Origin: Stegostoma tigrinum
Taxonomy: Eukaryota
Assembly: GCF_030684315.1 (NCBI RefSeq)
Contig: NC_081384.1
Location: 15,600,818-15,664,817, forward strand
Reading direction: 5' to 3'
DNA: 64,000 bases
Position numbers and translations under genes: made by a program. Below, one piece after another: positions 27,650 to 30,842 of the stretch (its first letter is position 1; every line of letters starts with the position of its first letter). The notes below the pieces were generated by a model. It searched no databases, was not told the DNA's origin, and worked only from the letters and a program-made list of their open reading frames with translations.

Positions 27650-30250
27650 GAGTTTGGAGTTCTGGCTGGAAAGCCAGGGATCGCCTGGTATGTTTGTTTG
27701 GCTTGTGCATTATGGATGTGTTGTACCAGTCGAATTTGTGTCCTTCTTTGTCCATGTGTATTGAGACCAGTGAGAATCGATCTTGTCTCTTGGTGGCTAG
27801 TTGGTGTTCATATATCCTTTATTGTCAGTTCTCTTCCGGTTTGACTTTTGTAGTGTATCTAACAGTCTTCACATGATGTTTTGTATGTTACGGTAGCTTT
27901 ATTTGTTGTGGGTATGGGATCCTTTATGTTCAACAGTAGTTGCCACAAGGTGGTTGCTGGTTCGTGGGCTACCCTGATACCTAGAGGTCTGAGTAGTCTT
28001 GTGGTCACCTTTTTTATGTCTCTGATGCGTGGCAGGGTGACTAGTGTGTCTGGCCATGTTGTGATCTGTCATGGAAATAACAGTGGATTGTGCTGTTTGG
28101 ATATCCACTCCTATTATAAACTCCATATAAGCTCTCCTGGAGTTGAACAAAGCAGAACAGGTTGCTGCAGTGTGTTATGGCCCTTTTTGTTTGAATAATG
28201 TCCTGATGCAGCTCTGTTAATGGGTGTTGGGGTGGTTGCTGGAGTTATTGTGTCTGATCCGTAGATATGGTCTTCATGCACTTGTCTGCAGTTCCCTGTT
28301 GTTCTTGTGTTCTGTCGTTACGTCTAGGAAGAGGAGTCACTTATTATTCTTTTTTTTTTTGTGAAATTTTTCCAGGAGGATGTTTAGGTGTCAGTGTCTT
28401 CAAGTCTTGTGCATTTGAATGTCACACGGGTATCATCTACATAGCAGACCCAGGGTCTCAGTTGTATAGTGGGGAGTGCTGTCTATTCTAATCTTCGCAT
28501 TACTGCCTCTGCAATCAGTCCTGATATAGTGGATCCCATTTAGTGTTTTGATTTGTTTGAATATACAGTCGTTGAAGGTGAAGTGTATTGTGAGGCACAG
28601 ATCCAGCGGTTTTAGGGTGCTGTCCTTGTTGATGCTGTTGGTGTTGCAGAGTGCTGATTCATCAGGAATGTCAATGTTTATGGATGTAAATAGTGTTGTT
28701 ACGTAGAAGGATATCAGTATCTTGTCCTCCTTCTATTCTGGTGTCCTTGATGAAGCTGGAGAATTCTTGGGAGGACTGGATTGAGTGGGTAGTGTTGTCA
28801 ACTAAGTATTTTTGGTTTCCATTGTAGGTCTTGCTAGTCTGTCTCACTCTCGAGCATACCAACAATGGGTCTGAGGGGTGCCCCTGGCTTGTGTACCTGG
28901 GGGAGTCCATAGAAGCTGAGTGTGTTGGCTTCTCTTTTGGTAGGCTGTTTGTCTAGCTGCTACTTCCTGAGTTGTGTCACATCTTCAGGGTTGTTTTGAT
29001 CTGGTTCTCTAACTGCAGTGTTGGGTCTGTTGGTGTCTGCTCGTAGTGCATTAGCTTTCTTGATGTATTGGGCTCTATTAAGGATTACTGTCATGCATCC
29101 TTTGTCTGCTGGTAAGATTACTATATTTCTGCCTTGAAAGTTGATGAACATTTCAAGGTCACAAATCTGAGTTTTAAGCTGCTCCACCAGCTGTTCCTTT
29201 ACTCTTGCTGGATTCACAATTTGAGCAATTGCTGCATCAACACCTTCTGCCTTGAGTCTTTCCAGGACTTTCCTCTCTTCTGTATTGAATGTATTCCACT
29301 TACCTTTTTTGCTCTGAGTTGGAACTGTCATCTCTCTGGCCTATTGTATTTCCTCCGTGAGTCCATTGTTCTTTAGTGTCGATTCCACTTCCTGCTCCTC
29401 TGCTGCTTGGCCTGCTGTGTTCATCCAGCTCTGCACTTTGTTATCTCAGATTCTCCAGCATCTGCAGTTCCTACTATCTCAGCCAGGAAGTCAGTTTTTT
29501 TTGTTTGAATCTCTGTAGTTATAATTCAGTCTGCATACTAGGTTGGTCTTCTGCATCTGTAAGTGGTCGGTTTTGTTTTTGAGATGTTCTTGATCCATGT
29601 TTCTGTGTTGTCAGTGCCATTGTAGAAGAGTTTGGATAGTTTTTCTTCTAGGGCTATTCTCTTTTGTTGTCTGGTGATGGCTTGTTCCAGTGTGCTTGTT
29701 CATTCTTGGTTAGTTGTGTTGGAGTATAAAGTGTTTTTGTTTTGTGTTTTTTTTTTTTGTCGCAGTTTCCTGCTTGTATTTGTGGAGGCAGTTGTGGGCA
29801 TCATTGATCATAACCCGTATCAGTCTGTTCAGCTGTTCTTTGTGCCTCTGGATTGTTGATCCGTGGTTTATAACTTAAGCTTTGTGGTGGTACCTGTTTT
29901 CTGAGGCGTTCATGCAGGAAGCATAGTTGTTCGTGGGTTGCGTTCAAACAGATGGCATTTGTCTCCCATCTACATGCCAGTGTGAGCATGTTGTGGCCAT
30001 TGGTGTTTTAAAGTTTGAGAAGATTTGTACCTCCAGTTGTAGCTTGCCAAGCCACTGTGAACTGGACCTGATGTACAAACCACTGAAAAATAGAGCCAGA
30101 AGCCAACTGCACCAGCCAACAGGCATATAAATAACAAGTGGGACCGAACACCGCTTCACCAGAGGCGCACTGACAATGTTACCTAGCAGGGTGATGAAAC
30201 GTCTGCAACCAGACACACTGGCTCGTTGAGCAAGTCTACAACTGCAAACT
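27650..30250 (-). mobile_element. decayed near-full-length Penelope-like retroelement (RT + GIY-YIG) in RUNDC1 intron 2
   Basis: Minus-strand motifs [38 protein letters not shown]-like VTYKTSCEDC*IHYKSQTGREL and GHKFDW; inverted pseudo-LTR with degenerate hammerhead at about 30120-30245; many stops and frameshifts; a terminal fragment of the other Penelope-like family is nested at about 29386-29480. Confidence 0.85.
29136..29243 (-). repeat. perfect inverted duplicate of RUNDC1 exon 3 segment 30729-30836
   Basis: 108/108 identical by manual base-by-base comparison; flanked by ttctgccttga at 29127-29137 and 29245-29255. Confidence 0.95.
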
Positions 30251-30643
30251 ACGTTTAAAAATCATACCTGAAAGATGGCACTTCTGATTCAGTAGTACTG
30301 AGTGAATGCTGCACAAAATTGTTGGCCTAGATTATACATTTTGTTTCTGGATTGGGGCATGCACCCATAACTTTGATCCAGGTGAGGAATGCCACTGAAT
30401 CTAGGCTAACATTGTTGGGCTCTGTACCAGCAAGCTGTTAGTTTGCAGCCGCAGCTTTTAATCATAAGGAGGAAGGAGAAGCGAAAATGCAGTCTTCTAG
30501 GAACAGACAATATCAGCAATATTGTGTTAAACTATTTAATGGCAGAACATTTGCAAGTATGTCTTAAGTGAGCCTTTAAAATTTGGTAAAAAGGTGGGTC
30601 TAGAGATGAAATGTTTTGATGTTTGTCTGTGTTCTTTAATCAG

Positions 30644-30842
30644 GTAATCATAGATGAATTGGTTAAAAAACTGGATGTAAATCTAAGTGAAGATTTTAGC
30701 AATTTGTCACCAGAAGAACTCAGACAACGTGTTGATGCAGCAATTGCTCAAATTGTGAATCCAGCAAGAGTAAAGGAACAGCTGGTGGAGCAGCTTAAAA
30801 CTCAGATTTGTGACCTTGAAATGTTCATCAACTTTCTGCAGG
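30644..30842 (+). CDS. RUNDC1: RUNDC1 exon 3
   Basis: Acceptor tttaatcag|; [14 protein letters not shown]...[37 protein letters not shown]; donor g|gtaagt; 199 nt. Confidence 0.95.

What the first reader, a model, noticed from the sequence alone, without database searches (positions are those of the whole stretch)
29127..30842. Perfect 108-bp antisense copy of RUNDC1 exon 3 inside the preceding intron: a built-in intron-exon dsRNA stem
Seen: 29136-29243 is the exact reverse complement (108/108, checked manually) of coding sequence 30729-30836. In the pre-mRNA the two can pair into a perfect 108-bp helix with a 1485-nt loop. The loop holds the exon 3 acceptor, and the stem ends 6 nt before the exon 3 donor. 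The host Penelope element is heavily decayed, yet the copy has no differences, so it is either recent or being homogenised or selected. Established: long intramolecular intron-exon duplexes act as ADAR editing-complementary sequences and can cause exon skipping. Inference: skipping this 199-nt exon would frameshift the mRNA and make it an NMD target, and editing would recode the predicted coiled coil ([12 protein letters not shown]). This could be a newly arisen cis-regulatory switch on a conserved gene.
Basis: partly seen in the sequence, partly recalled or inferred. Interest (0 to 1): 0.85.

Follow-up and report, generated by a model that had tools for sequence, protein, structure and literature searches.

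The report
Backwards exon copy, a repair scar
A shark-type RUNDC1 gene carries a perfect 108-base backwards copy of part of its third exon in the intron before it, most likely an ordinary, fairly recent DNA-repair scar of a kind common in this genome; it could pair with the exon in the RNA, but whether it alters editing or splicing is untested.

Summary
Window 29136-29243 is the exact reverse complement (108/108) of 30729-30836 in RUNDC1 exon 3, with no third copy in the genome. Sequencing-run contigs of two samples break exactly at the copy's ends, so it is not an assembly error. It interrupts an old Penelope-like element and has an 11-nt flank duplication, 2-nt microhomology and 1 filler base. 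That anatomy matches the published repair-mediated duplications (Pace 2009). Perfection needs no selection: 15 other private local pairs lie in 1.75 Mb sampled, 8 inverted and 3 at least 99% identical, one a perfect 142/142. A relative about 6% diverged shows exon 3 unbroken, so the copy is probably younger than that split. The 108-bp helix forms in computed folds, but no RNA covered exon 3, so editing and skipping are untested. The NMD claim is weak: the skip stop lies only 48-51 nt before the last junction. This scan has noted similar inverted exon copies on other DNA. Verdict: a new member of a known class, probably near-neutral, and a usable test case for editing.

The parts
29136..29243 (-). 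Acceptor copy: 108 nt of exon 3, inverted (antisense in the pre-mRNA)
   Evidence: 108/108; two places genome-wide; absent at this site in the 19 paralogues fetched
30729..30836 (+). Donor stretch inside RUNDC1 exon 3 (35 full codons, 27 invariant in the 120 best homologues)
29127..29137 (+). Left copy of the 11-nt flank duplication; the last 2 nt (29136-29137) are shared with the donor copy (microhomology)
   Evidence: sequence
29244..29244 (+). One filler base matching neither donor nor duplication
29245..29255 (+). Right copy of the 11-nt flank duplication
27655..30242 (-). Host: decayed Penelope-like retroelement with stops and frame shifts; approximate limits
   Evidence: paralogues about 70-80% identical; RVT_1 match in 2 of 10 paralogue frames, one above cut-off; tblastn pieces in several frames with stops; the 'Penelope-like' label rests on recalled motifs
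29388..29480 (.). High-copy SINE-like repeat nested in the host, inside the loop
   Evidence: self-BLAST; extreme depth
25791..25949 (+). RUNDC1 exon 2 (159 nt)
30644..30842 (+). RUNDC1 exon 3 (199 nt)
31631..31741 (+). RUNDC1 exon 4 (111 nt); stop at 31691-31693 if exon 3 is skipped
32264..33120 (+). RUNDC1 exon 5, coding part, RUN domain

Best explanation
The intron holds an exact inverted 108-nt copy of exon 3 that most likely arose as a one-off germline repair or replication template switch and is probably near-neutral. Inferred steps: a DNA 3' end in the old retroelement annealed by 2-nt microhomology to the exon 1.5-1.7 kb away on the opposite strand, copied about 106 nt, gained one filler base, and returned 11 nt behind its starting point (or a staggered break was filled in), leaving the flank duplication. 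It is perfect because it is young relative to a slow clock. In the pre-mRNA the arms are predicted to pair until intron 2 is spliced out; low-level bystander A-to-I editing is plausible (about even odds for 1% or more at some site, my estimate), but strong editing or skipping is unlikely to be tolerated in so conserved an exon.
For: Anatomy: insertion into a TE, absent from 19 of 19 paralogues fetched; single donor 1485 nt away; microhomology + duplication + filler, no polyA tail. Pace 2009 (PMC2671141): 824 proximal duplications under 5 kb, distance peak about 1,200 bp, mean 162 bp; the class MH+TSD+filler in 2 of 39 breakpoints; 7 human-specific ones identical to their donor; one exon copied inverted into its own gene's intron (ACSBG2) with no sign of constraint. 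Base rate here: 15 other private pairs in 1,752,603 non-N bases, 8.6 per Mb (4.8-14.1), 8 inverted, 3 at 99% or more, 3 with a 6-10 nt flank duplication, against 1 pair at 5-10 kb; 2 of 2 spot checks held genome-wide. Age: the host flank differs from the commonest paralogue letter at 39 of 404 columns; copy versus donor 2.7% or less. Relative B differs at 142 of 2326 letters, so 0 differences has P about 0.02-0.04 if the copy predates the split, and B's exon-3 contig is unbroken. At 7e-10 per generation (PMC10587355, another shark's estimate) the mean wait for a first change is about 13 million generations. 17 of the 20 recodable codons are invariant in the 120 best homologues.
Against: No RNA data covered exon 3, so neutrality is inferred, not shown. 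The duplex is strong (-203.6 kcal/mol, all 108 pairs in the MFE fold), and ADAR editing is active in a cartilaginous fish (PMC5625713). The empty site in a relative was not displayed, so the 11-nt duplication could instead be a shorter templated filler beside a short pre-existing tandem (paralogues carry 4 more bases at the site). B's run is shallow (depth about 4-6), so absence in B is a hint only. The base-rate blocks were chosen by hand, privacy was judged within the sample for 13 of 15 pairs, and two rows overlap and may be one event.
Confidence: 0.8

Rival explanations
1. The copy works as a cis-regulatory switch: an editing-complementary sequence or splicing silencer that tunes RUNDC1 dose or sequence and is kept by selection.
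For: A perfect 108-bp helix is predicted. Editing of intramolecular inverted repeats depends on distance and identity (PMC526178 passages). 24 of 34 exonic adenosines would recode. X3 depth (18.9 against 15-25 for neighbours) and its unbroken junction contig fit homozygosity in that sample.
Against: No conservation signal: B's exon 3 is unbroken. Perfect local pairs occur without exons. Neither splice site is inside the helix. A perfect duplex would be edited promiscuously rather than at one site (established knowledge, recalled). Hyper-editing is very rare in coding sequence (PMC5625713). The NMD route is borderline.
Confidence: 0.07
2. The copy was made by reverse transcription of the nascent RUNDC1 RNA in cis (target-primed, by a resident retroelement enzyme, or RNA-templated repair).
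For: The flank duplication and one untemplated base resemble target-primed insertion. The orientation is that of a cDNA primed from the left flank, and the copy is wholly exonic.
Against: No polyA tail and no splice junction inside the copy. Many similar local pairs have no open frame in any of six frames (6 of 15) and come in both orientations. Pace 2009 found tails only in distant duplications.
Confidence: 0.08
3. An older insertion kept identical to the exon by recurrent gene conversion or template-switch homogenisation.
For: Inverted repeats can homogenise (recalled); 100% identity inside a host about 10% decayed.
Against: Both copies of the flank duplication are also intact. A concerted copy in B would break its exon-3 contig, which runs through. 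Identities of the other pairs spread from 91 to 100%, as for events of mixed age.
Confidence: 0.04
4. Assembly artefact.
For: Perfect identity and closeness to the donor; one of the two samples may be the assembly's source.
Against: Contig breakpoints at 30758/30807 in two samples, and a junction-spanning contig 29214-29373 with 0 differences; biological junction marks.
Confidence: 0.01

Closest known systems
Repair-mediated duplications (RD) by capture of proximal DNA, Pace et al. 2009, PMC2671141 (parts 1-4 of 8 and passages read)
   Same: Insertion of 50 bp or more interrupting a TE; one donor under 5 kb away; size and distance near the reported mean and peak; microhomology + TSD + filler, no polyA; precedent of an exon copied inverted into its own gene's intron (ACSBG2).
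   Different: That survey covered mammals, chicken and zebrafish, not sharks; it did not discuss RNA pairing in the passages read; the density measured here (8.6 per Mb, other method) is far above its 0.08-0.65 per Mb of TE DNA.
'Doublets', short paired duplications (Thomas et al. 2004; seen only as described in PMC2671141, paper not held)
   Same: Short, near-identical, two-copy local duplication.
   Different: Slightly longer than the under-100-bp class described there.
Template-switch mutations (four-point model, PMC5453318, abstract and outline seen; FoSTeS/MMBIR/serial slippage named there)
   Same: A switch to the opposite strand gives an inverted copy; a return behind the start gives a duplication.
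   Different: The abstract concerns short local events; here the jump is about 1.6 kb.
Intronic editing-complementary sequences and inverted-Alu duplexes (PMC526178 passages; GRIA2 Q/R site recalled)
   Same: Intramolecular intron-exon duplex predicted within one pre-mRNA.
   Different: Known recoding ECSs are imperfect, site-selective and conserved (recalled); this one is perfect, apparently lineage-restricted, and has no editing evidence.

Membership tests
Repair-mediated duplication (Pace 2009) | Insertion of 50 bp or more interrupting a TE copy | tested here: met
   Host continues on both sides; 19 of 19 paralogues fetched lack the insert
Repair-mediated duplication (Pace 2009) | Exactly one donor, within 5 kb | tested here: met
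   Two places genome-wide, 1485 nt apart
Repair-mediated duplication (Pace 2009) | Microhomology, filler, deletion or TSD at junctions; no polyA/T tail | tested here: met
   2-nt microhomology, 1 filler base, 11-nt duplication, no tail
Repair-mediated duplication (Pace 2009) | Orthologous empty site in a relative | tested here: inconclusive
   B's exon 3 is unbroken, but its intron site was not among the displayed pieces
Editing-complementary sequence | Intron-exon duplex in the pre-mRNA | tested here: met
   Computed only: 108 of 108 pairs in the MFE fold of 29050-30950
Editing-complementary sequence | A-to-I editing of the paired exon in RNA | not testable with these tools
   No RNA run covered exon 3
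Editing-complementary sequence | Conservation or covariation across species | tested here: inconclusive
   No sign of an exact copy in B, at low depth
AS-NMD switch exon | Skipping gives a stop well over 50 nt before the last junction | tested here: inconclusive
   Stop 48-51 nt before the exon 4/5 junction; NMD falls off gradually there (PMC12776119); 3' UTR introns not examined
AS-NMD switch exon | Exon 2-exon 4 junction seen in RNA | not testable with these tools
   No RNA cover
Retroposed (TPRT) fragment | PolyA tail or spliced junction | tested here: not met
   Neither present

The most novel reading that the evidence does not exclude
A single repair event has created, from nothing, an editing-complementary sequence for an almost invariant coding exon: in this shark ADAR recodes RUNDC1 exon 3 at 10% or more, or the helix causes measurable skipping. 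With an extrapolated hundred or so inverted exon copies in the genome, repair-mediated duplication would be a general birth route for recoding sites and structure-based splicing control in slow-evolving vertebrates.
Probability: 0.15. Interest if true: 0.65.

Novelty: new member of a known kind. Interest (0 to 1): 0.2.

Why it matters
As it stands it is one more repair-mediated duplication, of which this genome may hold about 15,000-45,000 (extrapolated). Its value is as a natural experiment: a perfect 108-bp intron-exon duplex on an exon where most edits would hit invariant residues, with a close relative that seems to lack it. RNA-seq from both would show how much editing or skipping a young duplex causes and a vertebrate tolerates. 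RUNDC1 restrains autophagosome-lysosome fusion (review passage, PMC10904915), so a real effect would touch autophagy. I found no paper linking such duplications to the birth of editing sites (searches; open-access library only).

Tried and rejected
RNA test: no RNA holder listed for this species. The one RNA-like run of the species (X24) showed a single piece on the gene, 25790-25877 of a 603-nt record, and no cover at exon 3; this is no evidence either way. Of 24 listed runs I laid 4. The likeness setting of 87 let repeats flood the tables (521 joints and about 200,000 pieces not shown), so B's intron site and any empty allele could not be seen. Dating by the Cys at codon 30809 failed: 5 of 120 homologues, all sharks, share it. 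The insert reads in frame with host RT remnants on the minus strand (126-aa frame 28960-29340); rejected as chance (about 1 in 9) since the host has stops and shifts and the frame has no credible Pfam match. Pfam on the window's own host frames gave nothing above cut-off. A rough look for new splice signals in the insert found only weak AG sites and no consensus donor (no scoring model). Two papers were not held. PMC7404189 passages gave nothing decisive. No earlier notes on this genome. No supplements were consulted.

Full report
Observation. Window 29136-29243 is the exact reverse complement of 30729-30836, 108 of 108, with sharp ends. The own genome (3.2 Gb) holds the 108 nt at these two places only. 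The gene is RUNDC1 on the + strand: exon 1 ends at 18572, and exons 2-5 are 25791-25949, 30644-30842, 31631-31741 and 32264-33120; together they give an open frame. The last exon has a RUN domain. The exon-3 peptide finds 497 relatives, the best being shark RUNDC1 at 94-97%.

It is in the DNA, not only in the assembly. I laid 4 of 24 listed runs. In X3 and X4, two samples of one study, contigs stop at 30758 and restart at 30807, exactly 30 nt inside each end of the exonic arm. In X3 a whole 160-nt contig with no differences runs from 29214 to 29373, across the right junction. These are the breakpoints a 31-mer graph makes for a two-copy repeat with just these ends (inference). Its depth of 18.9 against 15-25 for neighbours fits homozygosity in that sample. 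One sample may be the assembly's source, and the two may be related.

Anatomy. The copy interrupts an old minus-strand retroelement (about 27655-30242) with many paralogues at about 70-80% identity. The element has RT remnants with stops and frame shifts; 'Penelope-like' rests on recalled motifs. All 19 paralogues fetched run through the site without the insert. An 11-nt stretch stands on both sides (29127-29137, 29245-29255). Its last two bases on the left double as the first two of the copy, and one base at 29244 matches nothing. There is no polyA tail and no splice junction. Paralogues have 4 more bases at the site than the simple empty-site reading gives, so either the host had a small earlier deletion or part of the duplication is templated filler; only an orthologous empty site can tell.

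Known class. Pace et al. 2009 (PMC2671141; parts 1-4 of 8 and passages read) found such events by looking for interrupted TEs. They report 824 in human with the donor under 5 kb, a distance peak near 1,200 bp, mean length 162 bp, and 2 of 39 examined breakpoints with microhomology + TSD + filler. Seven human-specific ones were identical to their donors, and one exon (ACSBG2) was copied in reverse into its own gene's intron without sign of constraint. The finding meets three of four defining features; the fourth (empty ortholog) is inconclusive.

Is perfection surprising? No. Zero differences in 108 nt bounds divergence at 2.7%, while the host flank differs from the commonest paralogue letter at 39 of 404 columns, so the copy is simply younger than its host. 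With another shark's mutation rate (7e-10 per generation, PMC10587355 passages) the mean wait for a first change is about 13 million generations. Relative B differs at 142 of 2326 letters in five displayed pieces; a copy older than that split would stay perfect with P about 0.02-0.04. B's contig crosses exon 3 unbroken, at low depth.

Base rate. In 1,864,000 bases of the own genome (1,752,603 non-N; eight hand-picked blocks on seven contigs, one including the window) I counted pairs of 50-1000 bp, at least 90% alike, with a median of at most two hits per arm in the sample. There were 16 at 50 bp-5 kb including this one, against 1, 3, 2 and 0 in the 5-10, 10-20, 20-50 and 50-100 kb bins. Of the 15 others, 8 are inverted, 3 are at least 99% identical (one a perfect inverted 142/142) and 3 have flank duplications; two rows overlap and may be one event. 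Two were checked genome-wide and both held, with the partner at 97-99% and all other hits at 84% or less. That is 8.6 per Mb (4.8-14.1). Borrowing Pace's figure of at most 8 in 824 exon-touching donors gives roughly 80-230 inverted exon copies genome-wide, 16-47 near-perfect (a rough extrapolation).

RNA consequences. Folding 29050-30950 gives all 108 pairs; the duplex alone is -203.6 kcal/mol, comparable to four repeat-derived inverted pairs in the same pre-mRNA (-170 to -391). Neither splice site lies in the helix. Of 34 exonic adenosines, 24 would recode 20 codons, 17 of them invariant in the 120 best homologues (best hits are biased to close relatives). Inverted-repeat editing falls with distance (PMC526178 passages). 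A cartilaginous fish shows abundant hyper-editing but almost none in coding sequence (PMC5625713 passages). Skipping exon 3 gives a stop at 31691-31693, 48-51 nt before the last junction, where NMD declines (PMC12776119 passages); a truncated protein lacking the RUN domain is as plausible as decay. None of this could be tested, as no RNA covered exon 3.

Verdict. Shown: the copy, its junction marks, its presence in reads of two samples, and the commonness of such pairs. Inferred: the template-switch or strand-annealing origin, an age after the split from B, and near-neutrality (0.8). A selected switch gets 0.07, RNA-templated origin 0.08, homogenisation 0.04 and artefact 0.01. Earlier notes of this scan describe similar inverted exon copies in other genomes, including shark-like ones; I did not check them and do not count them as support. 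Interest 0.2; new member of a known kind.

Noticed in passing
G000 sample blocks: Short private local duplications occur at about 8.6 per Mb, roughly ten times or more the densities Pace 2009 gives for human (0.62) and zebrafish (0.19 per Mb of TE DNA). Methods differ; a slow clock may preserve them longer.
   Followed up: partly
G000:C35:12056881-12057022 and 12057994-12058135 (L188): Perfect 142/142 inverted pair 972 nt apart; one copy sits between two inverted copies of a SINE-like repeat.
   Followed up: partly
G000:C14:30146876-30147257 and 30148500-30148883 (L117): Inverted 384-nt pair, 97% alike, inserted in a repeat with a 10-nt flank duplication: same anatomy as the finding.
   Followed up: partly
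window 26733-27284, 47706-47878, 55813-55932, 25233-25405: Near-palindromic repeat structures; the first lies in the same intron and is predicted to be a stronger hairpin (-391 kcal/mol) than the finding's helix.
   Followed up: no
window 28960-29340, minus strand: The insert is sense and in frame with retroelement RT remnants on both sides, giving a 126-aa chimeric open frame; probably chance.
   Followed up: partly
window 30662-30664 and 30686-30688: Exon 3 encodes Val and Ser where 120 of 120 and 118 of 120 homologues have Ile and Asn; both lie outside the copied stretch.
   Followed up: no
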